The notes under the pieces are model-generated. The model did no database searches. It saw only the letters and a program-made list of their open reading frames with translations, and had not been told where the DNA came from. Below are positions 38,979 to 51,431 of a DNA stretch of 64,000 nucleotides, in pieces. Numbering within the stretch: the first letter of the stretch is position 1; every line of letters starts with the position of its first letter. The stretch lies in NCBI GenBank assembly GCA_023732985.1, contig GCA_023732985.1_3946.1; one strand, 5' to 3'. The translations under genes were made by a program, and so were the position numbers. The DNA comes from a phage.

Positions 38979-39443
38979 TTACTTTGGATATACACTGTCA
39001 AGATAAATGTCAGCTTCCATTCTACGTCTGTTTTTCAGGCCGTTTGAAGTGACCTTCTTACCTTTTACTGTAACCTTGTTCCACCACTGCATAGCTTCTG
39101 CACAACCGACCTTATTACCAGCATTGTGGCGCTTGATAAATGTGGAATCCTGCATAGCTGTGATACCGATGTTGTATGTTTCACTTACAAGTGCATCGAA
39201 CTCATTCTGAGAAGTTGGAACCTTGATGGCTTTGTTCACTGCTGCAACGAACTTTTCAACATCTGCAAGAAGATACTGTTCAGCTTGTTCAGCGGTAATC
39301 TTCATACCCATCTTAACAGGCTTCCCACCAATACGAATTGTCCCATACCCAATTGTGGGGATTCCAGCAGAATCTTCGTAAGCCTCAAGCTTAAGACCTT
39401 CAAAGAACTTAATAGCTTCTAAACCTTTTCTTGAGAGTTGCAT
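38979..39443 (-). CDS. phage lysozyme (T4 lysozyme-like endolysin)
   Basis: N-terminal LEAIKFFEGLKLEAYEDSAGIPTIGYGT, the catalytic Glu and TIGYG motif of phage lysozymes. Confidence 0.8.
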   Translation of the reverse strand: MQLSRKGLEAIKFFEGLKLEAYEDSAGIPTIGYGTIRIGGKPVKMGMKITAEQAEQYLLADVEKFVAAVNKAIKVPTSQNEFDALVSETYNIGITAMQDSTFIKRHNAGNKVGCAEAMQWWNKVTVKGKKVTSNGLKNRRRMEADIYLDSVYPK

Positions 39444-40327
39444 TATGCCTCCCCTGCTGGGTTAACAGTAACTGTTGCAGCATTAGACGTTACAGAACCA
39501 CCTGCACCAGTCACTACACAGGTGTAGCTTCCTGAATCAGCAGCGGTTGCACCTTCTTTGGTGTAAGTTGCAGTAGTTGCATCGAGGATGTCTTCCTCAC
39601 CTTTCTTCCACTGGTAACCTGTCGCACCTGTTGCCACAACATTCAGCGTTAAGGTTTCACCTTCAGTGATTTCTTGATTGGTTGGCTGTTGAGTGATTAC
39701 TGGAAGTGCATTCACAGTCACTGTTGCTGCATCTGAGGTAACACTTGTTCCACCCTCTCCAGATACAACACAAGTGTATGAACCAGCATCAGAAGGTGCT
39801 ACTGACTGTTTTGTGTAAGTTGCAGAATTGGCACTAGGGATATCCTCACCATCCTTCTTCCACTGATACCCAGTGGCGTTAGTTGCTAGAATGCTTAGGG
39901 TAAGTGTGCCACCCTCATTGACTGTTTGACCTGTTGGTTGCTGAGTAATTGCTGGTGGCTTGATAGCATCCTTCAGCTTAGCATTCAACATTGAGAACGG
40001 CTTAACTCTTGCCAACCATTCACAGTAAATAGTGTCAACATCTTTACCATTGATGATTGCATACTGCAAATCCATGAAGAAATCAGCAGTTCTCATCTGT
40101 GCACCAACACTGTAAAGGAGTTCATCACTAAAAGGAACTTTATAGTCTGGTTTATAGTCAAACTTCTCAACTTCTGCAATATCAGCTTCAGGCCAATACG
40201 AGCTATAGGTAAGTGGTAAAATAGCCTCTTGATATGTTCTAAAATCATATCTCTTACCAGCCTTTACGTTTGCAATGAAGCCCTTCACAAACTCTTTGAA
40301 GTCTGGGTAAGTCTTTGCTTTAATCAT
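39443..40327 (-). CDS. protein with two tandem Ig-like repeats
   Basis: two ~85 aa repeats (ITQQPT...ATGYQWKK...SYTCVV...ATVTVN); N-terminal domain is paralogous to the next ORF. Confidence 0.6.
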   Translation of the reverse strand: MIKAKTYPDFKEFVKGFIANVKAGKRYDFRTYQEAILPLTYSSYWPEADIAEVEKFDYKPDYKVPFSDELLYSVGAQMRTADFFMDLQYAIINGKDVDTIYCEWLARVKPFSMLNAKLKDAIKPPAITQQPTGQTVNEGGTLTLSILATNATGYQWKKDGEDIPSANSATYTKQSVAPSDAGSYTCVVSGEGGTSVTSDAATVTVNALPVITQQPTNQEITEGETLTLNVVATGATGYQWKKGEEDILDATTATYTKEGATAADSGSYTCVVTGAGGSVTSNAATVTVNPAGEA

Positions 40328-40695
40328 TTCTTTTCAGCCTCTAAATGTGCGTTTAGTCTAAAATAACCTTTGTGGTGTGGAGATACATCACCAACAACAA
40401 TGCCTTTAACCTTATAACCTTTACCAATTACATACTGAATATCCATAAGGAATCTCCCAAGACCAACAATATGGAACATTGGATATAATAGGTTCTCAGA
40501 GTCTGGAATATTGATTTCAGGTTTGTAGGTGTGTTGTTTGCTTGTTGGTGTAATATCTTCTTCAGGCCATTTACTGAGTCTCCATGTCAAAGGTGTTGGG
40601 ATAACATCATTAAGGTTGTACCTTTCACCATTTTGCACGGAATTGATATAGGATTGTAGGAAGCAATAAAAGTCTTTTGCACTCTTAGCTTTCAT
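40324..40695 (-). CDS. hypothetical protein, paralog of the N-terminal domain of the Ig-repeat protein
   Basis: shared MIKAK/MKAKS start, YKP, FLMDIQYVI / FFMDLQYAI segments. Confidence 0.5.
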   Translation of the reverse strand: MKAKSAKDFYCFLQSYINSVQNGERYNLNDVIPTPLTWRLSKWPEEDITPTSKQHTYKPEINIPDSENLLYPMFHIVGLGRFLMDIQYVIGKGYKVKGIVVGDVSPHHKGYFRLNAHLEAEKK

Positions 40696-41952: not shown

Positions 41953-42324
41953 ATGAAAAACAGAACAAACAAAGGCCAGTTTAAAAAAGGCCAGTCTGGA
42001 AACCCATCTGGAAGACCAAAAGGCTCTCGTAACAAAAGCTCACTTGTAAAAGCTCAACTGACCATTGATAATTCTGCTGAGTTTGCTGCAAAGTTGTTTG
42101 AAGCAATTGTTACAAGGGATGCTGCTAAGCTTGCAGAGTTCGGGTTAAACACAGACGACGTAACCATCAAGAGCATGATTGAGGTCGGTAAAACTATCAT
42201 GACTCACTCAGCAGGTGAGATGAAAGCCATTGCAGCAGACACTAAGAAGACTCCTGATAACGGTGGTCAGTCTCAGACAGATAACAAACCAACGTTCTCT
42301 GCTGTAGCAACTCTTAAAAAATAA
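41953..42324 (+). CDS. hypothetical protein with N-terminal GQFKKGQSGNPSGRPKG motif
   Basis: Gly/Pro-rich basic N-terminal motif; function unknown. Confidence 0.55.
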   Translation: MKNRTNKGQFKKGQSGNPSGRPKGSRNKSSLVKAQLTIDNSAEFAAKLFEAIVTRDAAKLAEFGLNTDDVTIKSMIEVGKTIMTHSAGEMKAIAADTKKTPDNGGQSQTDNKPTFSAVATLKK

Positions 42325-42405
42325 TTTTAAAAGATGTTGACAGACTCTACAAAGTTGCTCTAAAGTCTGTCACATCAAACAACAAATGAGAGAAGAGAGT
42401 AAAAT

Positions 42406-43821
42406 ATGAGCGAATTATTTAAACATGCGCACCTTCATGCAGGTCGAACTGAAAATGGTGCTGTAAACCATACTTCATCAATGTCTGCTCTTGTAGACTT
42501 TTACAAAGCTGCTGGTTCAAGCCGTAGCAACGTAGAAATCTTACCAGACCTGTTCTACAAAGCTTTGCGTGAGGATGTTGATGTTGCAGTTCGTATTTTA
42601 CTGCATATGCGAGATGTACGAGAAGGCATGGGTGAGCGTAAAGCCTTCAGAACTGTTTTGCTTCAAGCGATTGAAGACAAAGTTTTAGAGTCTACGCAGG
42701 TTCTTCGCATTATGGATAAGATTGCAGAACTTGGTCGTTTTGATGACTTCAAAATCTTCGTGGGTACTCGTTTCGAGACAGATGCCTTCAAGCATTTAGA
42801 AGCAGCATTACTAGACCCTGCAACAGCAGGTTTGGCAGCTAAGTGGTTACCACGAGTCAAACCACGTCATAAGCAGTTTGTAAAACGTTTCTGCAAGTTT
42901 GCCAACTTGAGTGAGAAAGAGTACCGCACACTATTGTCTGCACTATCTGATACAGTTGAGCAAAAAATCTCTGCTAATGAGTTTGGTAAGATTGACTACA
43001 GTAAGATTCCTTCACTTGCTGCTGCACGTTACCAAAAACTGTTTAACCGTAAAGATGGAGAGCGTTACAAAGCTTACATCGAGTCCTTATCAAAAGGTGA
43101 GACTAAGATTAACGCTGGTGCTGTTTACCCATACGATGTGATTAAATCTGTCAAGTGTGGTAATGCAGATGTTGCTAATGAGCAGTGGAAAGCACTACCA
43201 AACTGGATGGCAGAAGGTGAAAACATCTTGTGTATGTCTGATGTATCAAGTTCAATGTCTTGGGTGAATTTTGGCTCCATTACTGCTCTGGATATTGGCG
43301 TATCACTTGCCTTGTATGTAGCAGAACGCAATACAGGTTGCTTTAAGAATGAGTTGATGGTTTATTCGACAAACCCTCACTTCATCGAACTGAGTGGTGA
43401 TTTACGAAACCGTCATCGTCAGGTGATGCGACACGTTGAATATGGCTCAACTAACTTACAAGCAGCTTTTGACCGCATTCTTGAAACAGGTAAAAGAAAC
43501 AACTTGACTCATAAAGATATGCCAAGTAAGCTTATCATCTTCTCCGATATGGAGTTCAATCAGGTTGATGGAGCTAACGGTCGTACAAACTTTGAAGCAA
43601 TTCAGAGTAAGTACAAAAAAGCTGGATATGAGATGCCACAACTGGTATTCTGGTACTTAGCAAACCGTAATGGTACTTGCGAAGTATCTGTTAAGGATAA
43701 CGGTGTAGCAATGGTATCAGGGTTCTCTCCAGCCACTTTAAAAGCTCTGCTTGGTGGTGAGAAGTTTGACCCAATCAGTGTAATGCTCAAAGCAGTAATG
43801 ATTGACCGTTATATCTGGTAA
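42406..43821 (+). CDS. vWA-domain protein with MIDAS motif (possible Ro60-like RNA-binding protein)
   Basis: helical N-terminal ~280 aa then vWA region with DVSSSMS (DxSxS); Ro60-like assignment is inference. Confidence 0.6.
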   Translation: MSELFKHAHLHAGRTENGAVNHTSSMSALVDFYKAAGSSRSNVEILPDLFYKALREDVDVAVRILLHMRDVREGMGERKAFRTVLLQAIEDKVLESTQVLRIMDKIAELGRFDDFKIFVGTRFETDAFKHLEAALLDPATAGLAAKWLPRVKPRHKQFVKRFCKFANLSEKEYRTLLSALSDTVEQKISANEFGKIDYSKIPSLAAARYQKLFNRKDGERYKAYIESLSKGETKINAGAVYPYDVIKSVKCGNADVANEQWKALPNWMAEGENILCMSDVSSSMSWVNFGSITALDIGVSLALYVAERNTGCFKNELMVYSTNPHFIELSGDLRNRHRQVMRHVEYGSTNLQAAFDRILETGKRNNLTHKDMPSKLIIFSDMEFNQVDGANGRTNFEAIQSKYKKAGYEMPQLVFWYLANRNGTCEVSVKDNGVAMVSGFSPATLKALLGGEKFDPISVMLKAVMIDRYIW

Positions 43822-43839: not shown

Positions 43840-43868
43840 TTGACAATGTGTTTAATACCCTTTAATAT
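43840..43868 (+). promoter_or_regulatory. sigma70-like promoter upstream of the tRNA cluster
   Basis: TTGACA, 17 bp spacer, TAATAT. Confidence 0.5.
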
Positions 43869-43986
43869 GTTCTACATAGAAACGAAATGAGAGCTTTTCT
43901 AAGATACTGAAAAATATTTTAAAAAAGTTCTTGACAACCACTAAAAAATAATGTTAAAGTGGTTACATAGAGTTTGAAAAGTTTAT

Positions 43987-44060
43987 CTCTGTTTAGCTCA
44001 GCTTGGTAGAGCGTTCCGTTTGGGGCGGTAAGGCCGGAGGTTCAAGTCCTCCAACAGAGA
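43987..44060 (+). tRNA. tRNA-Pro (anticodon TGG)
   Basis: hand-folded cloverleaf; acceptor CTCTGTT/AACAGAG; anticodon loop TTTGGGG; CCA encoded. Confidence 0.6.
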
Positions 44061-44070
44061 CCAAATTAAT

Positions 44071-44145
44071 GTTCCAGTGGACAAAATGGTAAAGTCACCA
44101 CTCTTTCAAAGTGGATATTTGAGGGTTCAAATCCCTTCTGGAACG
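44071..44145 (+). tRNA. tRNA-Glu (anticodon TTC)
   Basis: acceptor GTTCCAG/CTGGAAC; anticodon stem CCACT/AGTGG, loop CTTTCAA. Confidence 0.7.
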
Positions 44146-44155
44146 CCAGTTTTGA

Positions 44156-44226
44156 CAGAAGACCAATTACAGCAAACTTAATCTTATTCATCTGAAGGTA
44201 AATCGGACAAAGAAGAGATTTGGTCT
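44156..44226 (+). ncRNA. tRNA-spacer hairpin element, copy 1
   Basis: CAGAAGACCAATTACAGCAAACTT ... TTGGTCTGG; closing stem AGACCAA/TTGGTCT. Confidence 0.4.
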
Positions 44227-44239
44227 GGTCATTAAGAAT

Positions 44240-44313
44240 TGCGGGTATAGAGAAAGGGCGTCTCACATGTCTCATTAGCATGGTATCGGCAGGTTCGACT
44301 CCTGCACCCGCCT
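44240..44313 (+). tRNA. tRNA-Met (anticodon CAT)
   Basis: T-arm GCAGG-TTCGACT-CCTGC; anticodon stem CATGT/GCATG, loop CTCATTA. Confidence 0.6.
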
Positions 44314-44329
44314 CCAAATTTACAGAAGA

Positions 44330-44384
44330 CCGTTTACAGCAATACTTATTAAATTTTTAGCGGAAAAATTGAAAGATACGGTCT
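44330..44384 (+). ncRNA. tRNA-spacer hairpin element, copy 2
   Basis: closing stem AGACCGT/ACGGTCT with conserved TTACAGCAA. Confidence 0.4.
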
Positions 44385-44399
44385 GGTAATACTAAACAT

Positions 44400-44472
44400 G
44401 GTTAGGAAGCACATAAGGTATGTGCGGTCGCCTGTTAAGCGAATGGCACAGGGTTCGAATCCCTGACTAACC
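44400..44472 (+). tRNA. tRNA-Asn (anticodon GTT)
   Basis: T-arm CAGGG-TTCGAAT-CCCTG; anticodon loop CTGTTAA. Confidence 0.6.
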
Positions 44473-44485
44473 GCCAAATTAAATG

Positions 44486-44569
44486 TGTCGTTATCCCGTA
44501 GATGGTAGCGGTGGGGACTGTAAATCCCTTGTCATTGAGACTCGGTAGGTTCGACTCCTACACGGCACA
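44486..44569 (+). tRNA. tRNA-Tyr (anticodon GTA), long variable arm
   Basis: 84 nt; acceptor GTGTCGT/ACGGCAC; anticodon loop CTGTAAA. Confidence 0.6.
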
Positions 44570-44577
44570 CCAATAAA

Positions 44578-44651
44578 GGCTATGTAGTTTAACTGGAGAA
44601 AATACTCCCCTGTCACGGGAGATGATGTGAGTTCAAGTCTCATCGTAGCCG
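44578..44651 (+). tRNA. tRNA-Asp (anticodon GTC)
   Basis: acceptor GGCTATG/CGTAGCC; anticodon stem CTCCC/GGGAG, loop CTGTCAC. Confidence 0.7.
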
Positions 44652-44719
44652 CCAATTTTGAGAGGGCTATTTAGCTCCTCCCTTAAAGAGTTCTTACGAG
44701 TATTCTTTAAAGGAGCAGA

Positions 44720-44787
44720 AGACCAAATACAGCAAGAATGTATGAAATTTCAAGCCAATTTAATTTTGAAAATTTAAAACTTGGTCT
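44720..44787 (+). ncRNA. tRNA-spacer hairpin element, copy 3
   Basis: closing stem AGACCAA/TTGGTCT with conserved ATACAGCAAG. Confidence 0.4.
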
Positions 44788-44806
44788 GGCTCAACAAATT
44801 TACAGA

Positions 44807-44932
44807 AGACCGTTTACAGCAAAACTTAAACAATCTATTTCTCCGGTAAAGAAAAGGCGAAGGTTCGATTCCTTCACTCGGCAGATGTCGAGTTGGTGTA
44901 ATGGTAGCACTTAAGATGATAAACAACGGTCT
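44807..44932 (+). ncRNA. tRNA-spacer hairpin element, copy 4, carrying a permuted tRNA-like module (candidate Y RNA-like tRNA mimic)
   Basis: closing stem AGACCGTT/AACGGTCT; inside, T-arm GAAGG-TTCGATT-CCTTC, then ACTCGGC, AGAT loop, GTCGAGT (7 bp acceptor-like helix), then D-arm-like GTGTAATGGTAGCAC. Confidence 0.4.
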
Positions 44933-44940
44933 GGTAATTA

Positions 44941-45072
44941 TCTTTGTAGATAAGTTATTAAGCTTACCTGTGAGTATGCGACCACAAAGGGTGAAGGGTA
45001 AATTCTAGATTTAAACCTAAAAGGCACATCGCTACAGACCTTAAGCAAGTCTGGGTAGCTTATCTACAAAGA
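44941..45072 (+). ncRNA. structured element closed by a 14 bp perfect inverted repeat
   Basis: TCTTTGTAGATAAG ... CTTATCTACAAAGA enclosing about 105 nt. Confidence 0.35.
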
Positions 45073-45080
45073 TAATTTAA

Positions 45081-45154
45081 TGGAAGTGTAGCAGAATGGT
45101 GATGCGGCAGACTTTTAATCTGACAGGCGATGGGTTCGAATCCCTCCACTTCTA
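45081..45154 (+). tRNA. tRNA-Lys (anticodon TTT)
   Basis: acceptor GGAAGTG/CACTTCT; anticodon loop CTTTTAA; paralog of the tRNA at 46672. Confidence 0.6.
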
Positions 45155-45161
45155 CCAATAT

Positions 45162-45234
45162 GGTTCAGTCGCAGATAAGGTAATGCAAGGGTCTCATAAG
45201 CCCTATGAATGTGGGTTCGATTCCCATCTGAACC
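45162..45234 (+). tRNA. tRNA with CAT anticodon (Met, fMet or Ile2)
   Basis: acceptor GGTTCAG/CTGAACC; anticodon stem AGGGT/GCCCT, loop CTCATAA. Confidence 0.65.
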
Positions 45235-45240
45235 TCCAAT

Positions 45241-45312
45241 TGTGGGTTAGCATAAATGGTAATGCAAACGGCTGATAACCGTTAGAAGAGGGTTCGATAC
45301 CCTCACCTACAA
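45241..45312 (+). tRNA. tRNA-Ile (anticodon GAT)
   Basis: acceptor TGTGGGT/ACCTACA; anticodon stem AACGG/CCGTT, loop CTGATAA. Confidence 0.65.
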
Positions 45313-45330
45313 CCAATTTCAATAAAGTTG

Positions 45331-45359
45331 TTGACATTGAGATGTGACTACTTTATAGT
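45331..45359 (+). promoter_or_regulatory. sigma70-like promoter
   Basis: TTGACA, 17 bp spacer, TATAGT. Confidence 0.5.
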
Positions 45360-45368
45360 AACCTTAGT

Positions 45369-45427
45369 TTTCGTTGCGTAGCGTCTATTTTGCAAATTTA
45401 AAATAAATGCAAACGACAATGTTTTTC
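45369..45427 (+). ncRNA. candidate small RNA (promoter to T-tract)
   Basis: about 60 nt between the promoter and an imperfect hairpin ending TGTTTTT; no ORF. Confidence 0.3.
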
Positions 45428-45563
45428 TGGCAGTAGCTTGATAGGCTAAACACCAGTGAGGTCTTCCAATCCCTCATCAAAGAATTTGGCGTACTCGCCC
45501 ACGGTATGATTAATAAGGTGGGCATCTTTAAGGGCTTTCTAAGAGAGTCTTTAAAGATAATTA

Positions 45564-45642
45564 CGGGGCGTATCTCAGCGGTCTTCTAAACCGCCGTTAA
45601 CCGAGTAAGTGGAGTATGCGGGTTCGAGTCCTGCCGCCTCGA
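45564..45642 (+). tRNA. tRNA-like gene, non-canonical fold, isotype unresolved
   Basis: 7 bp acceptor CGGGGCG/CGCCTCG and T-arm GCGGG-TTCGAGT-CCTGC, but D and anticodon arms could not be placed by hand. Confidence 0.35.
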
Positions 45643-45659
45643 CCAATTTTGGAGAAATC

Positions 45660-46007
45660 ATGAAAACTTGTATTAGGTGCAAACTTAGCAAGGATGAAAA
45701 TGATTTCTACATGAAAGATGGTAGGAGAACTCATTCATACTGTAAAAAGTGTGTTAATGAGCAAACCATAGAAAGACAAAGAGCACTTAAACTCTTAGCT
45801 ATTGAGTACAAAGGTGGGGTTTGTCATGATTGTGGTAAGAAGTATCATCCAGCAGTGTATGACTTCCATCATTTGAATCCTTCAGATAAAGATTTTAACA
45901 TTGGTCATAGGAAAAGCCTTAAGTTCTCTCAAGAACTAAAAGATGAACTTGACAAATGTGTTTTGCTATGTTCAAATTGCCATAGGGTAAGACATGCAAA
46001 ATATTAG
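45660..46007 (+). CDS. HNH homing endonuclease
   Basis: ATG at 45660 (track start overlaps the tRNA-like gene); CxxC pairs plus DFHHLNP...LLCSNCHRVRH. Confidence 0.65.
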   Translation: MKTCIRCKLSKDENDFYMKDGRRTHSYCKKCVNEQTIERQRALKLLAIEYKGGVCHDCGKKYHPAVYDFHHLNPSDKDFNIGHRKSLKFSQELKDELDKCVLLCSNCHRVRHAKY

Positions 46008-46144
46008 TTAGCAGATTACTTAGACGGCCTTAGCGGGTCTTCCTGTAGGGAGGTGGTCTGTATCTCATGTTTTCCAGAACATGTAAATAATCTGAGAAGG
46101 AGCTTGACAGTGTTGAGATAATACGGTAAGCTTCGAATTATAGT

Positions 46145-46224
46145 ATGGGACGATGTTAAGACTCTAAGGCATGAGCAACGGCTTCCAACACCGTTTCAAA
46201 GGGGTTCAACTCCTCCGTCCCATG
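46145..46224 (+). tRNA. tRNA-like gene, non-canonical fold (possible CCA anticodon, Trp)
   Basis: 7 bp acceptor ATGGGAC/GTCCCAT and T-loop TTCAACT; D region about 6 nt too long; candidate anticodon loop TTCCAAC. Confidence 0.35.
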
Positions 46225-46240
46225 CCAAAGTCTTATTAGG

Positions 46241-46328
46241 GGTAGGTAGCGGCTAATGGTAGCCAAACTGTCTTGAAAACAGTTGCCACTGTAGAGATAC
46301 GGTGAGGGTTCGACTCCTTTACTTACCG
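46241..46328 (+). tRNA. tRNA-Ser (anticodon TGA), long variable arm
   Basis: 88 nt; acceptor GGTAGGT/ACTTACC; anticodon stem ACTGT/ACAGT, loop CTTGAAA. Confidence 0.6.
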
Positions 46329-46586
46329 CCTAATAAGATTTTAAAGCCAAGCTTCATTCGGATGTTGCTTTGGTATCCCTCGTGTATTGTCGTACACACT
46401 GATAAAACACCTAGTAGGTGTCACGGAGAAGAGATAATATCAAGCTCTCCAAAGGTTCTAGTCACCGGATTAAACAAGACTATGCAAAGACCTTTTTAGG
46501 TCTTTTTAGAGGGCTTCTAAGGTTATTACGGCTTGTTGTGGAACCTTGTTGCTTAGGTTCTTAGAAGTTCTCTAAAAAGATTTAAT

Positions 46587-46661
46587 GGGAGATTGACGGT
46601 AATTGGTAAACCTATCTCGCTTAGAACGAGATGTTTGAGGGTTCGAATCCCTTGTCTCCTA
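46587..46661 (+). tRNA. tRNA with TAG anticodon (Leu-type) but short variable arm
   Basis: anticodon stem ATCTCG/CGAGAT (6 bp), loop CTTAGAA; T-arm GAGGG-TTCGAAT-CCCTT; variable region 5 nt. Confidence 0.5.
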
Positions 46662-46671
46662 CCAAATTAAT

Positions 46672-46745
46672 GCAGGTGTAGCAAAATGGTTATGCGGCTG
46701 ACTCTTAATCAGTAAGACGATGGGTTCAATTCCCTCCACCTGTAC
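46672..46745 (+). tRNA. tRNA-Lys (anticodon CTT)
   Basis: paralog of the 45081 tRNA with a compensatory anticodon-stem change; loop CTCTTAA. Confidence 0.55.
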
Positions 46746-46752
46746 CAAAAAT

Positions 46753-46825
46753 GGGGTCATAGTTTATATGGTTAAAATTCGAGTTTTGCAAACTTGGGAA
46801 CTGAGTTCAATTCTCAGTGACTCCA
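46753..46825 (+). tRNA. tRNA-Ala (anticodon TGC)
   Basis: G3:U70 pair in acceptor GGGGTCA/TGACTCC; anticodon loop TTTGCAA. Confidence 0.6.
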
Positions 46826-46834
46826 CCAATTAGT

Positions 46835-46906
46835 GCATCCATAGTTTAAACGGGAAAATTACAGTCTTCCAAACTGAGGTTGAGGGTTCGATTCCCTCTG
46901 GATGCT
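46835..46906 (+). tRNA. tRNA-Gly (anticodon TCC)
   Basis: acceptor GCATCCA/TGGATGC; anticodon loop CTTCCAA. Confidence 0.65.
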
Positions 46907-46916
46907 CCAAATTAAT

Positions 46917-46989
46917 GCTCCTATCGTATAATTGGCTATTACGGTTGCCTTGTAAGCAACTTATCAGGGTTCGAATCCTTGTGGGAGCA
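46917..46989 (+). tRNA. tRNA-Thr (anticodon TGT)
   Basis: anticodon stem GTTGC/GCAAC, loop CTTGTAA; T-arm CAGGG-TTCGAAT-CCTTG. Confidence 0.65.
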
Positions 46990-47087
46990 CCAATTCAGAG
47001 GTCAAGTGAAAGACCGCTGGTGTCAACTGAAGACCGTAACAAATTCCACGGAGTTGAGTTAGCGGCACAACTTCAGACCTCTTTCAC

Positions 47088-47159
47088 ACTCGCTTAGTTT
47101 ATATGGTAAAACATCACCCTTACAAGATGAAGAAAAAGGTTCAAGTCCTTTAGTGAGTA
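47088..47159 (+). tRNA. tRNA-Val (anticodon TAC)
   Basis: D-stem GTTT/AAAC; anticodon loop CTTACAA; T-arm AAAGG-TTCAAGT-CCTTT. Confidence 0.55.
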
Positions 47160-47163
47160 CCAT

Positions 47164-47239
47164 GTTCCAGTATCCCAATTGGCAGAGGATGCAAGCTCAA
47201 ACCTTGTATTAGTGACGGTTCGAATCCGTCTTGGAACAC
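47164..47239 (+). tRNA. tRNA with CAA anticodon (Leu-type) but short variable arm
   Basis: anticodon stem TGCAAG/CTTGTA, loop CTCAAAC; T-arm GACGG-TTCGAAT-CCGTC. Confidence 0.5.
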
Positions 47240-47355
47240 CAATTTTAGGAGAACACTATGAGCAATAAGTCAATTGCAAAAAAGTTTAGAGCGTCATACC
47301 TAAACAGACGTAAAAACAAAGTTTGTGAAAAACTGTATGGTGTTCTCGTAGGTAA

Positions 47356-47428
47356 GCAGGATTAGTTCAAATGGATAGAGCAACAGTCTACGAAGCTGTT
47401 AATAGGGGTTCGAATCCCTTATCCTGCA
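47356..47428 (+). tRNA. tRNA-Arg (anticodon ACG)
   Basis: perfect acceptor GCAGGAT/ATCCTGC; anticodon loop CTACGAA. Confidence 0.65.
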
Positions 47429-47450
47429 CCAATTTAAAGAGGCTATTTAG

Positions 47451-48008
47451 ATGAGATATTTGAAGTATGCTTCATGGATTTTCTTAGCTTTGTTAGAGCC
47501 ATTTGCAGCAATCTTAGCAGTTATCTTAGCACCTTTTGTAGTTCCATTCTACAGTGAGAAGAAAGGACACTTACCTTTCGGGTTCAGATGGATGGAGACA
47601 TATGACAACCCAATTGATGGTGATGAAGGTCACGTTAAAAGATGGGCTAATATTAGATGGATTGGTAAACTAGGTGTCTACATGCAAAGAGTCGGATGGC
47701 TCTGGAGAAACAAAGCTTATAACTTCTCTTACCATGTATTAGGAAGAGATGTAAGAGATGTTACTAAGTGGAAAGGTAATATCAACGTAAGTTCTAACCC
47801 TGAAGATAATCAGACTGGTTATCTCCTAATGTGGAACAGTAATGCTTGGGGATTATTCGCTTTTATCCCATCAATTAAAGTCTTCGGTAAACAGTTTTAC
47901 TGGAGAATTTATGTTGGATGGAAACTTAAAAGTGTTGTCCCAGAAGAAAGAGCATTCTCAAGGGAAAGAGTTATGTTGGCATTCTTTATTCATCCACTGA
48001 GAAAGTAA
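47451..48008 (+). CDS. hypothetical membrane protein inside the tRNA cluster
   Basis: AAGAGG RBS; N-terminal hydrophobic segment. Confidence 0.45.
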   Translation: MRYLKYASWIFLALLEPFAAILAVILAPFVVPFYSEKKGHLPFGFRWMETYDNPIDGDEGHVKRWANIRWIGKLGVYMQRVGWLWRNKAYNFSYHVLGRDVRDVTKWKGNINVSSNPEDNQTGYLLMWNSNAWGLFAFIPSIKVFGKQFYWRIYVGWKLKSVVPEERAFSRERVMLAFFIHPLRK

Positions 48009-48016
48009 AGATTTAA

Positions 48017-48090
48017 AGGGGATTAGTTTACAAGGTTAAAACCTAGGTCTTTGAAATCGAAGAAGTTGGTTCAATTCCAACATCCCCCGC
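48017..48090 (+). tRNA. tRNA-Gln (anticodon TTG)
   Basis: T-arm GTTGG-TTCAATT-CCAAC; anticodon loop CTTTGAA; stem has one mismatch. Confidence 0.5.
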
Positions 48091-48094
48091 CAAT

Positions 48095-48169
48095 GCTCCA
48101 TTACTCCAATTGGCAGAGAGGCCAGACTTAAAATCTGTGTTATGTATCGGTTCGAATCCGATATGGAGT
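48095..48169 (+). tRNA. tRNA with TAA anticodon (Leu-type) but short variable arm
   Basis: acceptor GCTCCAT/ATGGAGT; T-arm ATCGG-TTCGAAT-CCGAT; anticodon loop CTTAAAA. Confidence 0.45.
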
Positions 48170-48177
48170 ACCAAATT

Positions 48178-48252
48178 TAGCGGTATAGCATAACTGGCAA
48201 TGCAGCAGTCTCTGAAGCTGTCCTATTAAGGTTCAAATCCTTATGCCGCTGC
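48178..48252 (+). tRNA. tRNA-Gln (anticodon CTG)
   Basis: acceptor AGCGGTA/TGCCGCT; anticodon loop CTCTGAA. Confidence 0.55.
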
Positions 48253-48285
48253 CACTTCTAAGGATTCTTACGAGAGTCCTTAAAT

Positions 48286-48358
48286 GTGGCCTTATCATAA
48301 ATGGTAATGACCCATGCTGTGAACATGGTCTATACGGGTTCAAATCCCGTAGGTCACC
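48286..48358 (+). tRNA. tRNA-His (anticodon GTG)
   Basis: anticodon stem CCATG/CATGG, loop CTGTGAA; acceptor GTGGCCT/AGGTCAC. Confidence 0.65.
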
Positions 48359-48367
48359 CCAATTTAT

Positions 48368-48440
48368 AGTCCAAGTAGCTTATATGGTTAAAGCGCGTGT
48401 CTGAAAAACATGAGAAGAGGGTTCAAATCCCACTGGACTA
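48368..48440 (+). tRNA. tRNA-Phe (anticodon GAA)
   Basis: anticodon loop CTGAAAA; T-arm GAGGG-TTCAAAT-CCCAC. Confidence 0.6.
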
Positions 48441-48459
48441 CCAATTTCAAAGGTGCTTA

Positions 48460-49194
48460 ATGAAAGAGATGACAGAACAAGGTAAGGAGATTTTCAATCT
48501 CTTAAAAACCGGTAAAGGGTTTTCTAACCCCCTTATTACTGGTGCAGCAGTTCTCGGTGGAACCGTAGCTGCCTCTACATCACTTGTAAGCTCTATTAGC
48601 TCTGTATCAGACCCTACAGTAAAGGATAAGCTTGTTGCTGCTGGACTTACAACAGTTCTGCTTAACAGCTTTACCACGAGTCTGACAAGCACTACATCAA
48701 CTACCAAAACACTAACAGATTACGGTCAAAAGTCCATTGATGAGTTTTCATCACGTATGCAGGTAGCAAAAGGTTACTCTAATGTTATGGGTGCAGCAGG
48801 TGAACAAGTTGGCTGTACACCATTTAGTGGTATTATGGGTGTTGCTACAGAGTATGGTCAAAAAACTATTGATACGATTAACAGTGTACTAGATAGTGTT
48901 AATGGTGTGTTAAGTGACTTACAAGATGCTATTGACAAAGGTCTTGATACTATTTCTGATTTAGCTGAGCAAGCTGTTAGTAAGATTAATGAAGGTATTT
49001 CAAAAATTACAGCTTATGCAGATGAAGTTGTGCAGATGATTGAAGAAGAAGCTGCTCTTATTGCAGAGTACCTTAAAACGAATATCAATGGGTTCTTAGC
49101 AGGTATCTTACCAGACTGGTTTGATGATGCTTGTAAAACTGGTGTAATTGACACTATTGCAACACCAGAAATGAAGAACGCATTACAGAAATAA
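48460..49194 (+). CDS. hypothetical protein (Ser/Thr-rich)
   Basis: ATG at 48460, in frame with the track ORF whose upstream part overlaps tRNA-Phe. Confidence 0.55.
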   Translation: MKEMTEQGKEIFNLLKTGKGFSNPLITGAAVLGGTVAASTSLVSSISSVSDPTVKDKLVAAGLTTVLLNSFTTSLTSTTSTTKTLTDYGQKSIDEFSSRMQVAKGYSNVMGAAGEQVGCTPFSGIMGVATEYGQKTIDTINSVLDSVNGVLSDLQDAIDKGLDTISDLAEQAVSKINEGISKITAYADEVVQMIEEEAALIAEYLKTNINGFLAGILPDWFDDACKTGVIDTIATPEMKNALQK

Positions 49195-49196
49195 AT

Positions 49197-49286
49197 GGAA
49201 GATTAACCCTAAAAGGTAAGGGAGCAGTTTGCTAAACTGCCAGTAGCTGAGAAATCGGTGTACCAGTTCAAGTCTGGTATCTTCCT
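49197..49286 (+). tRNA. tRNA-Ser (anticodon GCT), long variable arm
   Basis: 90 nt; perfect acceptor GGAAGAT/ATCTTCC; anticodon stem GCAGT/ACTGC, loop TTGCTAA. Confidence 0.6.
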
Positions 49287-49295
49287 CCAATTTGA

Positions 49296-49368
49296 ATCCG
49301 TGACAGAAACGGCTATGTGCCTGTCTGCAAAACAGGTTTATAAGGGTTCGAGTCCCTTCGGATTCTCC
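49296..49368 (+). tRNA. tRNA-Cys (anticodon GCA)
   Basis: perfect acceptor GAATCCG/CGGATTC; anticodon stem CCTGT/ACAGG, loop CTGCAAA. Confidence 0.7.
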
Positions 49369-49406
49369 AAGTTATTTTACTCTCTCTCAATTAAAATAAT
49401 AATAAT

Positions 49407-49792: not shown

Positions 49793-49813
49793 TTCTATTT
49801 GCGGAGGTGCTTA

Positions 49814-51415
49814 ATGGACTTAAATGCTGTTAAGCAGAAGCGAGTGGAAGATGTTAGGAAAGTCCTAGCTGGAGAGTTGGGGCTTTCTGATGAAGTAAAA
49901 GAAATTATCAAATCATTCGGTAAAGACCCCTCTAAATTCCTTCCAACTCAAATTCTGACTTTATTAAGATATACACCAGACCAAGTTAGACTTATCTTCA
50001 AATTGATGACTGATAAGAACTATGTAGCCCCTCAGCCGGGTTCTCAAGAGGTCTTTTTAAATACTAATGCTGACTTGGTTCTCTATGGTGGTGCTGCTGG
50101 TGCTGGTAAAACTGCTGCATTGTTAATGGACTCTTTAAGGTTTATTGAAGACCCTAACTATAATGCTGTATATTTCCGTCGAAATACAACACAGCTACAA
50201 GGTGGTTTATGGCCTGCTGCAAAGAAACTATTTGGTAAGTTTGGTGGGGTTCCTCACGAGCAGAAGATGACTATCACATTCCCTTCTGGGGCAACTATCA
50301 AGTTTACTTATTTAGAACTTGAAAAACACGCTGAAGGTCATCAGGGTATTGAATACTCAGCTATTTACTTTGATGAAGGTACACACTTCTCTGCTTCACA
50401 GATTTCATACCTACAAACACGTCTGCGTTCTGGTGCTGAAGGTGATTCATACATGAAGATTTCCATGAACCCAGACAGAGACCACTTTATTTATGATTGG
50501 GTAGAACCATTCTTAGATGAAGAAGGTTATCCAGACCCTGAAAAGTGTGGTCGTATTCGTTGGTACGTAATGAATGACGGTGTGATGGTTTCTGATTGGG
50601 AGAGAGACAAGATTCTTGAAATGTTCCCTCTTGAGATTCCTCAAACATACACCTTTATCTCTGGTACGATTGATGATAACCCAATCCTTGACTTCTTAGA
50701 ACCTAAGTACCGTGGTAAGTTGGAAAACAACACCCCTGTAAACGTTGCAAGACTTCGTTTCGGTAACTGGAAGGCTCGTGCAGAAGGTTCAAACTACTGG
50801 CAAAGACAATGGTGTGAAATTGTTGATTCACTCCCAGAAGATGTATTTGATGTTAGAGCATGGGACTTAGCAGCAACTTTACCATCTGAGATTAACCCTA
50901 ATCCAGACTGGACAGCAGGTGTTAAGATGGGTAAATCTAAAAAAGACGGTTGCTATTATATCATTGATGTAGTAAGATTTAGAGATAGACCCTCTGGAGT
51001 CGAAACACAAATTAATTTGACTGCTGAAAGTGACGGTAAGCGAACTGGTATTTTTATCCCTCAAGACCCAGGCGCTGCTGGTAAATCCTACGCAACATCC
51101 CTCATCAGGAAACTTGCCGAGAAAGGTTATCGTGCAAGAGCTAAACCAACAAATAAAGATAAAGTTACCCGCTTTGCGGGATTTTCTGCTGCTTCTGAGG
51201 CTGGACTTGTAAAAGTCTTGAGAGGTAGTTGGAACGAAGCTTATTTTCAAGAGCTTGAAGGCTTTTGTGGTGATGGCAAAACTAAAGATGACCAAGTGGA
51301 TGCTACCAGTGATGCTTTCAACAGTCTTAACGAAGTTAAATTATTCAAGCCACCATCAATGGGTGCTCACACAGACTTAGTGAGAGGAAACCCATATGAG
51401 GGGCTTAGACGTTGA
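49814..51415 (+). CDS. terminase large subunit
   Basis: ATG at 49814 after GGAGG; Walker A-like LYGGAAGAGKTAA; position directly before the portal gene. Confidence 0.85.
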   Translation: MDLNAVKQKRVEDVRKVLAGELGLSDEVKEIIKSFGKDPSKFLPTQILTLLRYTPDQVRLIFKLMTDKNYVAPQPGSQEVFLNTNADLVLYGGAAGAGKTAALLMDSLRFIEDPNYNAVYFRRNTTQLQGGLWPAAKKLFGKFGGVPHEQKMTITFPSGATIKFTYLELEKHAEGHQGIEYSAIYFDEGTHFSASQISYLQTRLRSGAEGDSYMKISMNPDRDHFIYDWVEPFLDEEGYPDPEKCGRIRWYVMNDGVMVSDWERDKILEMFPLEIPQTYTFISGTIDDNPILDFLEPKYRGKLENNTPVNVARLRFGNWKARAEGSNYWQRQWCEIVDSLPEDVFDVRAWDLAATLPSEINPNPDWTAGVKMGKSKKDGCYYIIDVVRFRDRPSGVETQINLTAESDGKRTGIFIPQDPGAAGKSYATSLIRKLAEKGYRARAKPTNKDKVTRFAGFSAASEAGLVKVLRGSWNEAYFQELEGFCGDGKTKDDQVDATSDAFNSLNEVKLFKPPSMGAHTDLVRGNPYEGLRR

Positions 51416-51431
51416 TAGCTAGGTGAGAAGA

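What the first reader, a model, noticed from the sequence alone, without database searches (positions are those of the whole stretch)
41953..43821. vWA/MIDAS protein and GNPSGRPKG-motif protein immediately upstream of the tRNA cluster
The 471 aa protein has a helical N-terminal ~280 residues followed by a von Willebrand A region with a DVSSSMS (DxSxS) metal-site motif, the same two-part layout as Ro60 (TROVE plus vWA), though shorter. The preceding 123 aa protein carries an N-terminal GQFKKGQSGNPSGRPKG motif of unknown function. Both sit in their own transcription unit next to the tRNA array and the tRNA-like element, suggesting an RNA-binding or RNA quality-control role.
Basis: inference. Interest (0 to 1): 0.55.

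Follow-up and report, generated by a model that had tools for sequence, protein, structure and literature searches.

The report
Phage Ro60-like protein with partner RNAs
The larger gene encodes a phage version of the ring-shaped RNA-binding protein Ro60, and beside it lie four previously unannotated small RNA genes that look like its partners and share their signature motif with the enigmatic "Class I" RNAs of social amoebae; the smaller gene is most likely just the phage's small terminase.

Summary
The window is a Felix O1-like phage (98.9% identical to wV8).

**What is new.** The first 1.1 kb of the downstream tRNA array holds three ~70-nt stem-loops (closing stem, UUACAGCAA, A-rich loop, CUG end). 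It also holds one ~135-nt RNA with the same stem around a YrlA-type tRNA-like module.
- A model built from such elements gives 98 hits in 1.15 Mb of related phage loci, 97 on the gene's strand.
- Of the 82 best hits, 52 lie within 500 nt of the gene (7% expected).
- The elements also flank the gene in Listeria, Mycobacterium, Campylobacter, Bacillus, Sinorhizobium and Synechococcus phages.
- A model built only from published Dictyostelium Class I RNAs finds the same phage sites.

**The 123-aa protein.** In 65 of 66 other phage loci, a DUF5681 gene sits immediately upstream of a large-terminase-like ORF. It is most likely the small terminase.

Binding and function are inferred, not shown.

The parts
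41953..42324 (+). 123-aa DUF5681 protein (basic N-terminal GNPSGRPKG motif plus helical hairpin); probable small terminase subunit
   Evidence: Pfam DUF5681 E 2e-14. AF2 model: disordered residues 1-27, helices 28-54 and 72-97. In 65/66 evaluable non-Felix viral loci a TerL-like ORF follows on the same strand.
42337..42366 (+). sigma-70-like promoter match (TTGACA-18-TAAAGT) in front of the Ro60-like gene
   Evidence: consensus match only
42406..43821 (+). 471-aa Ro60-like protein (Pfam DUF2828 + DUF7788): helical repeat ring followed by a vWA domain with a complete MIDAS site
43840..43960 (+). two tandem sigma-70-like promoter matches (43840-43868, 43931-43960) ahead of the tRNA/small-RNA array
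   Evidence: direct repeat D16
43987..44148 (+). tRNA-Pro and tRNA-Glu
44157..44230 (+). Class I-like small RNA 1 (stem AGACCAA/UUGGUCU, motif UUACAGCAA, ends CUG)
   Evidence: R1 40.9 bits, E 1.3e-5; Rfam RF01414 19.7 bits; fold
44240..44316 (+). tRNA-Met, 9 nt after small RNA 1
44324..44388 (+). Class I-like small RNA 2 (stem AGACCGU/ACGGUCU, motif UUACAGCAA)
   Evidence: R1 48.1 bits, E 2.8e-7; RF01414 20.3 bits; Dictyostelium-only model R3 17 bits, E 0.65
44400..44654 (+). tRNA-Asn, tRNA-Tyr, tRNA-Asp
44717..44791 (+). Class I-like small RNA 3 (stem AGACCAA/UUGGUCU, motif AUACAGCAA)
   Evidence: R1 41.9 bits, E 7.5e-6
44803..44937 (+). YrlA-like RNA: the same closing stem and UUACAGCAA motif around a tRNA-like module (T arm GAAGGUUCGAUUCCUUC, a hairpin, a D-arm-like GUGUAAUGGUAGCAC)
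   Evidence: R2, trained without any Felix-like sequence: 54.6 bits, E 1.4e-8, full model length. Partial Rfam tRNA hit 44826-44876.
45082..49369 (+). remainder of the tRNA array, with an HNH endonuclease gene (45660-46007) and DUF7338 and DUF7217 genes
49799..51415 (+). large terminase subunit (Terminase_6N/6C), followed by a Mu-type portal at 51423-52898; the probable functional partner of the DUF5681 protein

Best explanation
The 471-aa protein is a divergent phage homologue of Ro60: a helical-repeat ring closed by a MIDAS-containing vWA domain, belonging to Pfam family DUF2828/DUF7788.

Its most likely ligands are four small RNAs encoded within 1.1 kb downstream on the same strand, among the first tRNAs. 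Three are ~70-nt stem-loops. Each has a 7-bp closing stem, an unpaired UUACAGCAA next to the 5' arm, an A-rich loop and a CUG end. The fourth is a ~135-nt RNA with the same closing stem ('handle') around a YrlA-type tRNA-like module.

These RNAs would be transcribed from the sigma-70-like promoters ahead of the array and released by ordinary tRNA processing. The stem-plus-CAGCAA handle would dock on the protein, and the variable insert would recruit other factors, as the loop of a Y RNA does.

By analogy with Rsr-Y RNA-PNPase and with the Thermus phage Ro60-Yrl-PNPase complex, the particle probably redirects or restrains host 3'-5' exoribonucleases, or carries out quality control of structured RNA during infection. 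A plausible beneficiary is the phage's own tRNA transcripts.

Shown here: the fold, the family membership, and the existence, covariation and gene-linked position of the RNA family. Inferred: binding, processing and the downstream function.

The 123-aa DUF5681 protein is a separate matter. It is most likely the small terminase, with the Ro-like gene and the tRNA/small-RNA array inserted between it and the large terminase.

For: **RNA family.**
- The window holds four copies.
- The stem covaries: 7 of 7 pairs show changes on both sides.
- R1 gives 98 hits in 1.15 Mb, 97 of them on the gene's strand.
- Of the 82 hits with E<=0.05, 52 lie within 500 nt of the gene against 7.2% expected, p 1e-38.
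- 23 of 38 loci with no tRNA in the flanks still carry the element beside the gene.
- The long forms hit Rfam YrlA at E 5e-5 to 8e-4, below the gathering score.
- R2 finds the window unit at E 1.4e-8.
- Six cultured phages from distant hosts, whose proteins are 29-38% identical, carry the elements in unannotated gaps beside the gene.

**Reciprocal test.** 16 of 43 motif-plus-stem sites have a Ro-like gene in the stored stretch, against 2 of 39 motif-only sites, p 4e-4.

**Negative control.** The T4 tRNA region gives no R1 hit.

**Published support.** In Listeria phage CKA15, the homologue's best HHpred match is Rsr, and highly transcribed unannotated regions lie within 2 kb upstream on the same strand.
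Against: - No binding, expression or processing data exist for this phage.
- No Pfam TROVE match is detectable.
- The RNAs lack the canonical Ro-binding motif and score below the Rfam gathering thresholds.
- 18 of 77 loci have neither an R1 hit at E<=0.05 nor a full-length R2 hit.
- The loci are related to each other, so the p-values overstate independence.
- The training elements were chosen for having a stem, so the covariation figures are partly circular. Strand, position and the flanking conserved bases were not selected for.
- Elements that abut the start codon in some phages could be cis-acting leader elements rather than separate RNAs.
- The Listeria homologue was found in purified virions, which would also fit a structural or injected role.
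Confidence: 0.6

Rival explanations
1. The repeated stem-loops belong to the tRNA array and have nothing to do with the protein. They could be processing punctuation (RNase E, RNase III or RNase P guides), promoter or attenuator elements, or decayed tRNA genes. They would lie near the DUF2828 gene only because both sit in the phage 'tRNA region'.
For: In the window every unit lies between tRNAs, and units 1 and 2 end 9-11 nt before a tRNA. Nearly all R1 hits far from the gene lie within 170 nt of a tRNA or tmRNA. The 5' arm overlaps a weak promoter match at 44319. The long forms contain tRNA-derived arms.
Against: In 23 of 38 loci with no tRNA or tmRNA within about 8 kb, the element still lies within 700 nt of the gene, often 24-50 nt from the stop codon. 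The T4 tRNA region, in a phage that lacks the gene, has no such element. The conserved single-stranded motif together with a covarying stem is typical of a protein-binding handle. The same architecture exists as free, abundant RNAs in dictyostelids.
Confidence: 0.15
2. The 471-aa protein acts mainly through its vWA/MIDAS domain as a virion-associated or assembly factor, for example an injected protein or a co-chaperone. The Ro60-like fold would be an inherited scaffold with no RNA function.
For: The gene lies between the probable small terminase and the large terminase, at the head of the morphogenesis module. The Listeria phage homologue was detected in purified particles with 57% sequence coverage. 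MIDAS sites usually mediate protein contacts. vWA co-chaperones are known in large phages.
Against: Only Ro60-family structures match the whole chain. A dedicated RNA family tracks the gene across phages of six host phyla. The gene is otherwise found in tRNA or early regions, not in structural modules. Packaging in virions does not exclude RNA binding.
Confidence: 0.15
3. One reading: the DUF5681 protein and the Ro-like protein form one two-gene RNA-handling unit, with the basic GNPSGRPKG motif binding RNA.
For: The two genes are adjacent and on the same strand in all Felix-like phages and in one relative whose Ro-like protein is 47% identical. The N-terminus is basic and disordered.
Against: None of the other 74 loci with a Ro-like gene encodes a DUF5681 protein. 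In 65 of 66 evaluable non-Felix loci the DUF5681 gene lies directly before a TerL-like ORF, often overlapping it. In Rheinheimera phage Barba8S the order is HNH, DUF5681, three small ORFs, TerL, portal.
Confidence: 0.05

Closest known systems
Ro60/Rsr with Y RNAs: bacterial Rsr-YrlA/YrlB, D. radiodurans Rsr-Yrn1-PNPase (RYPER), Thermus phage phiLo Ro60-Yrl1/2
   Same: Whole-chain fold of a helical ring plus a MIDAS vWA domain. Small RNA genes lie within 1-2 kb on the same strand, in several copies, one of them with a tRNA-like module in YrlA order. The RNAs are modular: a terminal stem plus a variable insert. Occurrence in phages is already documented.
   Different: There is no detectable Pfam TROVE sequence match, and the protein is shorter (471 aa against about 500-540). 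The proposed binding handle is a 7-bp stem plus unpaired UUACAGCAA. Canonical Y RNAs use the GGUCCGA bulged helix, and YrlA uses the GNCGAAN0-1G motif. The RNAs fall below the Rfam YrlA gathering score. Here the RNAs are interleaved with true tRNAs.
Dictyostelid Class I RNAs (Rfam RF01414; Aspegren 2004, Avesson 2011, Kjellin 2021)
   Same: Length of about 60 nt. [quoted passage not shown] The motif (CC)UUACAGCAA sits immediately 3' of the 5' arm. The RNAs start with (A)AG and end with CUG(U), and the 3' half of the loop is A-rich. Some members carry a T-arm-like hairpin. A model built only from 34 dictyostelid sequences finds 37 phage sites, all on the gene's strand and coinciding with R1 sites.
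   Different: The phage RNAs score below the RF01414 gathering score (at most 30.8 bits against 41.5; about 20 bits in this window). They have bacterial-type promoters or tRNA flanks instead of the DUSE element. Many carry large inserts. The published binding partner in Dictyostelium is an RRM protein (Rnp1A/CIBP), not a Ro-like protein. Whether dictyostelids encode a DUF2828 protein could not be tested here.
Phage small terminase subunits (TerS)
   Same: The DUF5681 protein is small (about 110-150 aa). It has a basic N-terminus and a helical hairpin, and its gene lies immediately upstream of, often overlapping, the large terminase gene on the same strand.
   Different: No sequence or fold match to any solved TerS was found. 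In this phage it lies 7.5 kb from TerL. No DNA-binding or oligomerisation data exist.

Membership tests
Ro60 / TROVE family | Whole-chain architecture: a ring of helical (HEAT-like) repeats closed by a C-terminal vWA domain | tested here: met
Ro60 / TROVE family | Sequence match to the Pfam TROVE domain (PF05731) | tested here: not met
   No TROVE hit at E<=10 for the protein or any of 59 homologues. Only weak vWA_Ro60 hits in 15 of 60, best E 1.7e-4.
Ro60 / TROVE family | MIDAS motif (DxSxS...T...D) in the vWA domain | tested here: met
   D279, S281, S283, T349 and D381 are invariant in 60 sequences.
Ro60 / TROVE family | Y RNA gene(s) nearby on the same strand | tested here: met
   Four candidate RNAs lie 336-1116 nt downstream. 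The same holds in 59 of 77 loci and in six distant cultured phages.
Ro60 / TROVE family | RNA partner carries the canonical Ro-binding element (GGUCCGA bulged helix or GNCGAAN0-1G near the 5' end) | tested here: not met
   The handle is a stem plus UUACAGCAA. There is no Y_RNA or YrlA hit in the window at E<=10. In related loci the outer YrlA stems are mismatched in the Rfam alignments.
Ro60 / TROVE family | Demonstrated binding of Y RNA or misfolded RNA | not testable with these tools
   Needs RIP/CLIP or gel-shift assays.
Pfam DUF2828 + DUF7788 | Scores above the Pfam gathering thresholds for both domains | tested here: met
   DUF2828 102.1 bits (cut-off 29); DUF7788 147.8 bits (cut-off 27.1); PHROG 850 E 3e-183.
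Dictyostelid Class I RNA (RF01414) | Short terminal stem, conserved motif ending ACAGCAA next to the 5' arm, AAG start and CUG(U) end, length about 60 nt | tested here: met
   Units at 44157, 44324 and 44717: AGACCNN / (A/U)UACAGCAA / NNGGUCUG, 65-75 nt long, compared with published sequences.
Dictyostelid Class I RNA (RF01414) | Score at or above the Rfam gathering threshold (41.5 bits) | tested here: not met
   19.7 and 20.3 bits in the window. At most 30.8 bits in related phage loci. My dictyostelid-only model gives the window unit 17 bits, E 0.65, but gives 22 phage sites E<0.02.
YrlA (RF02553) | tRNA-like module (T arm, acceptor-like hairpin, D arm) enclosed by a terminal stem | tested here: met
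   The unit at 44803-44937 matches R2 over the full model at E 1.4e-8; sequence.
YrlA (RF02553) | Score at or above the Rfam gathering threshold (69 bits) | tested here: not met
   No hit in the window. 25-40 bits in related loci.
Small terminase (for the 123-aa DUF5681 protein) | Gene immediately upstream of the large terminase on the same strand | tested here: inconclusive
   Met in 65 of 66 evaluable non-Felix loci and. In this window TerL is 7.5 kb downstream.
Small terminase (for the 123-aa DUF5681 protein) | TerS fold, oligomeric ring, DNA binding | tested here: inconclusive
   The AF2 monomer (pLDDT 71.7) is a helical hairpin with disordered ends. Foldseek against the PDB gives nothing below E 4. 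Oligomerisation and DNA binding cannot be tested here.

The most novel reading that the evidence does not exclude
DUF2828/DUF7788 proteins and 'Class I-like' RNAs (terminal stem, UUACAGCAA, variable insert) form an ancient second branch of the Ro60-Y RNA particle, present across tailed phages of many bacterial phyla. The dictyostelid Class I RNAs would belong to the same RNA family. These are abundant and developmentally regulated, were thought unique to social amoebae, and have had no known mechanism since 2004. On this reading they are Y-RNA relatives, and their real partner is a DUF2828-type Ro-like protein, either inherited or acquired from phages or giant viruses by these bacterivores.
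Probability: 0.35. Interest if true: 0.9.

Novelty: new variant of a known kind. Interest (0 to 1): 0.8.

Why it matters
Ro60-Y RNA particles are a classic but still poorly understood RNA-surveillance system. If the reading is right, several things follow.

- **A second, sequence-divergent branch of the system.** The protein occurs in 710 of 50,697 deposited phage genomes, including well-used model and biocontrol phages (Felix O1, A511/P100, LeBron, KVP40-like).
- **A simple, searchable RNA handle.** Hundreds of unannotated phage small RNAs get a candidate protein partner.
- **A concrete ligand set for a 'DUF'.** Some ORFs called over these RNAs are probably spurious (wV8 gp048 is one candidate).
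- **A recurring three-way association.** Phage tRNA and tmRNA clusters, tRNA mimics and a Ro-like protein turn up together. That bears on how phages protect or mature their own tRNAs against host nucleases and tRNA-targeting defences.
- **A testable hypothesis for Dictyostelium Class I RNAs.** They share motif and architecture with the phage RNAs and have lacked a mechanism for two decades.

Separately, assigning DUF5681 as the likely small terminase fills a gap in Felix O1-type genome annotation.

Tried and rejected
- **Sequence routes to Ro60.** A single-sequence search of the PDB gave only uridine kinase at E about 1. The profile search gave Ro60 at E 0.5-0.9, suggestive only. Pfam TROVE was never hit. 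NCBIfam and PADLOC had nothing.
- **Canonical Y RNA in the window.** Rfam at gathering score and at E<=5/10 gave no Y_RNA or YrlA hit.
- **A conserved protein partner.** Clustering the neighbouring ORFs of 75 loci found no family in more than 20 loci. The commonest are lineage-specific and, from reading their sequences without a family search, look like ClpP, DnaJ, RNase HII, a DNA polymerase and a homing endonuclease. No RtcB or RNA ligase was linked to the gene.
- **DUF5681 as a co-factor.** Rejected: it is absent from the other Ro-like loci.
- **Fold of DUF5681.** No informative match.
- **The repeats as promoters or inverted-repeat mobile elements.** Considered because of the TTTACA/TTGACA overlap and the inverted arms. 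Rejected because the arms differ between copies with compensating changes.
- **GGUCUGG as a relative of the Y RNA GGUCCGA helix.** Considered and dropped: the strand orientation relative to the loop is inverted, and the stem sequence is not conserved in other phages.
- **GGCGAAGG in unit 4 as the YrlA GNCGAA motif.** It sits at the T arm, not in the handle, so it is probably coincidence.
- **Dictyostelid DUF2828 proteins.** The AlphaFold-database fold search, which could have listed eukaryotic members, was unavailable. Avesson 2011 and Aspegren 2004 are not held. Literature searches for the family accessions found only plant and mimivirus-like mentions.
Full report
**Identity of the window and check of the observation.** The DNA around the finding is 98.9% identical to Escherichia phage wV8, and 253 phage records match it, nearly all Felix O1-like (Felixounavirus and relatives). 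The two ORFs lie exactly as described: 41953-42324 (123 aa) and 42406-43821 (471 aa), both on the + strand. They are followed after 166 nt by a same-strand array of 25 tRNA genes. The GNPSGRPKG and DVSSSMS motifs are present. In RefSeq the genes are wV8 gp046 ("DUF5681 domain-containing protein") and gp047 ("RNA-binding protein"); other records call gp047 "vWFA protein" or "DUF2828 family protein". Sigma-70-like promoter matches precede the 471-aa gene (42337) and the tRNA array (43840, 43931). No convincing terminator separates the gene from the tRNAs.

**The 471-aa protein.**
- Pfam places it in DUF2828 (residues 172-264) plus DUF7788 (274-455), and PHROGs places it in phrog_850, "RNA-binding protein".
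- The family is large. A word-indexed search scored 2,551 homologues among the 8,000 candidates it kept, and 710 of 50,697 deposited phage genomes carry one.
- These include Listeria A511/P100-like, Staphylococcus, Enterococcus, Bacillus, Campylobacter, Vibrio KVP40-like, Aeromonas, Sinorhizobium and Synechococcus phages, and cluster L mycobacteriophages, where SEA-PHAGES annotate it "Ro-like RNA binding protein".
- An AlphaFold2 model built on 60 diverse homologues is confident: pLDDT 89.6, pTM 0.89. It is helical up to about residue 263, then a vWA fold.
- Foldseek against the PDB returns only Ro60-family chains as full-length hits. These are Xenopus and human Ro60, D. radiodurans Rsr and Thermus phage phiLo Ro60, at E about 1e-8 and TM up to 0.66.
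- The MIDAS residues (D279, S281, S283, T349, D381) are invariant, as are several basic residues in the helical part.
- By sequence the relationship is marginal. There is no Pfam TROVE hit for any of 60 members, weak vWA_Ro60 hits in 15, and a PDB profile hit to Ro60 at E 0.5.

The protein therefore has the Ro60 fold, but by sequence it does not fall in the TROVE family. It is also already reflected in database names and in one paper on a Listeria phage.

**Genomic company of the gene.** I fetched 80 viral-metagenome loci encoding relatives, most of them 38-47% identical.
- No protein-coding neighbour is conserved across them. The DUF5681 gene accompanies the Ro-like gene only in Felix-like phages and one 47% relative.
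- tRNA or tmRNA genes do recur. 37 of 75 non-Felix loci have them within about 8 kb, 19 within 1 kb, and every one of several hundred lies on the gene's strand.

**The repeated RNA elements.** Reading the spacers of the window's tRNA array showed a unit repeated four times. It consists of AGAAGACCNNNUACAGCAA, then 40-110 nt, then NNGGUCUGG.
- Each copy folds into a closing helix whose sequence differs between copies with compensating changes.
- A motif-plus-stem scan of all loci then found the same architecture on the gene's strand in most of them, often 24-50 nt from the stop codon or directly before the start codon. Hits on the opposite strand were few and lacked the flanking features.
- In words, the consensus is: (A/U)AG start, a 7-bp stem of free sequence, one spacer base, U(A/U)CAGCAA, an A-rich loop, the complementary arm ending in CU, then G.

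**Three covariance models.**
- **R1** was built from 36 short phage elements.
  - All 7 stem pairs show double changes. The elements were picked for having a stem, so this figure is partly circular.
  - R1 gives 98 hits at E<=1 in 1.15 Mb searched on both strands, 97 of them on the gene's strand.
  - Of the 82 hits at E<=0.05, which fall in 52 of 77 loci, 52 lie within 500 nt of the gene. Only 7.2% of the flanking sequence lies that close (binomial p 1e-38, overstated because the loci are related).
  - Nearly all remaining hits lie within 170 nt of a tRNA or tmRNA.
  - 23 of 38 loci with no tRNA in the flanks still have the element beside the gene, so the element follows the gene rather than the tRNAs.
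  - In the 64-kb window the only R1 hits are 44157-44230, 44324-44388 and 44717-44791 (E 1e-5 to 3e-7) and a weak hit at 44804.
- **R2** was built from 11 long elements, none of them Felix-like.
  - It matches window 44803-44937 over its full length at 54.6 bits, E 1.4e-8.
  - These long forms enclose a T arm, a hairpin and a D arm in the permuted order typical of YrlA. Rfam's YrlA model hits them at E 5e-5 to 0.05, below its gathering score. In those alignments the tRNA-like core aligns and the outer Ro-binding stems do not.
  - Other long forms carry unrelated inserts, so the stem plus CAGCAA behaves as a constant handle with variable cargo.
- **R3** was built only from 34 published dictyostelid Class I RNAs, typed from the supplement of Kjellin et al. 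2021.
  - It finds 37 phage sites at E<=1, all on the gene's strand and coinciding with R1 sites. 22 have E<0.02. One lies in Listeria phage A511 and one in a Synechococcus phage.
  - The window's own units score weakly with R3 (17 bits).
  - Rfam's own RF01414 model gives the same picture: up to 30.8 bits in related loci and about 20 bits in the window, against a gathering score of 41.5.

**Generality, reciprocity and control.**
- Six cultured phages were examined: Listeria A511, Mycobacterium LeBron, Campylobacter CP30A, Bacillus FADO, Sinorhizobium phiM7 and Synechococcus BUCT-ZZ01. Their proteins are only 29-38% identical to this one. All have R1 and/or R2 hits, mostly in unannotated gaps directly flanking the gene, on the same strand, with E down to 5e-11.
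- Starting from the RNA instead, I scanned IMG/VR for AAGGNTNNNTACAGCAAAY. Of 43 sites with a complementary arm, 16 had a Ro-like gene in the stored stretch, which was often truncated, and always on the same strand. Of 39 sites without an arm, 2 did (Fisher p 4e-4).
- The T4 tRNA region, in a phage that lacks the gene, has no R1 hit (best 13.9 bits). Its only R2 hits are cross-matches to genuine tRNAs.

**Relation to what is published.**
- Ro60 homologues and nearby Y-like RNAs in phages are known for TROVE-annotated proteins, where the RNAs carry the GNCGAAN0-1G or CGAA motif.
- For Listeria phage CKA15, whose 56.8-kDa protein I take to be the A511 gp57 homologue, the authors noted an HHpred match to Rsr. 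They speculated that three very highly transcribed unannotated regions within 2 kb upstream might be Y RNAs. They also detected the protein in purified virions.
- LeBron gp53 is moderately toxic to M. smegmatis when overexpressed.
- Class I RNAs are described as 42-65 nt RNAs. They have a short covarying terminal stem, an 11-nt motif (CCUUACAGCAA) beside the 5' arm, an AAG start and a CUGU end. They are reported as unique to Dictyostelia, with an RRM protein as the only identified direct binder.
- Two published dictyostelid members contain a T-arm-like GGUUCGA(A)UCC hairpin, echoing the phage YrlA-like forms.
- I found no paper linking the Class I motif to phages, Ro60 or DUF2828.
- DUF2828 is reported in plants and in mimivirus-like sequences. 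I could not test whether dictyostelids have it.

**The 123-aa protein.**
- It matches Pfam DUF5681 (E 2e-14), which has no annotated function.
- Outside Felix-like phages its homologues sit in the small-terminase position. In three metagenomic phage contigs the gene overlaps the start of a Terminase_6N/Terminase_3 gene.
- In Rheinheimera phage Barba8S the order is HNH, DUF5681, three small ORFs, TerL, portal.
- Across 66 evaluable IMG/VR loci, 65 have a TerL-like ORF starting within 1.5 kb downstream on the same strand. Of these, 56 resemble a Pfam-annotated TerL. The other 9 resemble an unannotated 470-aa ORF in the same position.
- The window's TerL (Terminase_6N/6C, 49799-51415) and Mu-type portal are of the same types.
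- The AF2 model is a helical hairpin with a disordered basic N-terminus (pLDDT 71.7), and no fold match is informative.
- I conclude, from gene order only, that this is the small terminase. In Felix-like phages the Ro-like gene and the tRNA/small-RNA array would then be inserted between terS and terL.

**Mechanism proposed, and its status.**
- Shown: the Ro60 fold on a predicted model; the family membership; four structured elements in the window belonging to a covarying RNA family; the tight same-strand linkage of that family to the gene in phages of many hosts; and the shared architecture with YrlA (cargo) and with Class I RNAs (handle).
- Inferred:
  - The RNAs are released from the tRNA transcript by RNase P and 3' trimming.
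  - The protein binds the stem-CAGCAA handle.
  - The particle acts on host exoribonucleases or on structured-RNA quality control, as Rsr-Y RNA-PNPase and phiLo Ro60-Yrl-PNPase do. Phage tRNA transcripts are plausible clients.
- Main rivals: the elements are tRNA-array punctuation unrelated to the protein; or the protein is chiefly a virion or assembly factor.

**Verdict.** The Ro60 reading of the large protein is supported but already known at annotation level. The pairing with the small protein is not supported. The new result is the associated RNA family and its unexpected match to dictyostelid Class I RNAs.

Noticed in passing
window 45331-45645 (+): A strong sigma-70-like promoter match (TTGACA-17-TATAGT at 45331) is followed by about 200 nt of unannotated sequence. 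Then comes a tRNA-like element (Rfam tRNA 31.7 bits at 45564-45642) with a 7-bp acceptor stem and an encoded CCA, which ARAGORN does not call. There are sub-threshold tmRNA and permuted-tmRNA hits over 45258-45562. It might be a further tRNA mimic or a decayed tmRNA.
   Followed up: partly
L202 (Listeria phage A511) 1465-2016 (+): A ROOL-like RNA (Rfam RF03087, 87.5 bits against a gathering score of 99.1, E 2e-16) lies about 1 kb upstream of the Ro-like gene gp57. It sits between tRNAs and the Class I-like elements.
   Followed up: no
L020 8605-9054; L026, L029, L035, L037, L045, L057: tmRNA genes lie 3-7 kb from the Ro-like gene on the same strand in at least seven distant phage loci. Class I-like elements lie near them.
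   Followed up: partly
window about 44776-45033 (-), by offset from wV8 gp048 in L001 11077-11334: An annotated minus-strand hypothetical ORF of wV8 lies over small RNA 3 and the YrlA-like RNA. The window position is inferred from the locus offset and is only approximate (the ORF list has no minus-strand ORF spanning it). The ORF call is likely spurious. wV8 gp049 likewise overlaps tRNAs.
   Followed up: no
L049 7731-7837 (+): A Class I-like stem and UUUCAGCAA motif enclose a tRNA-like body in normal order (D arm, anticodon-like arm, T arm). The acceptor stem is replaced by the handle.
   Followed up: no
L008 7273-7374, L010 3130-3236, L013 146-284, L030 7731-7832 (+): A different conserved cargo sequence (GAACCUUUCUGGAGGGGAAAGCAAAAACUCGCC) sits inside the same handle in one phage group. 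Other groups (L056, L066, L072, L074, L061) have further large structured inserts.
   Followed up: no
L205 (Bacillus phage FADO) 240-2810; L204 (Campylobacter phage CP30A) 1949-2362: Many tRNA genes detected by Rfam are not annotated in these RefSeq records. They fill the 'empty' gaps upstream of the Ro-like gene.
   Followed up: no
window 45660-46007 (+), 47451-48008 (+), 48397-49194 (+): An HNH endonuclease gene lies directly after the tRNA-like element. Two DUF genes (DUF7338, DUF7217) are embedded in the tRNA array.
   Followed up: partly
Kjellin 2021 supplement: asu_can_20, ppa_can_99: Two published dictyostelid Class I RNAs contain a T-arm-like hairpin (CUAGGUUCGAUCCCUAG; UUGGUUCGAAUCCGA), like the phage YrlA-like forms.
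   Followed up: partly
window 39443-40327 (-): A 294-aa ORF with two tandem repeats of about 90 aa (each containing ...ATGYQWKK...SGSYTCVV...) lies upstream of the endolysin. From reading its sequence, without a family search, it looks Ig-like. The next ORF (40324-40695) shares its N-terminal region.
   Followed up: no
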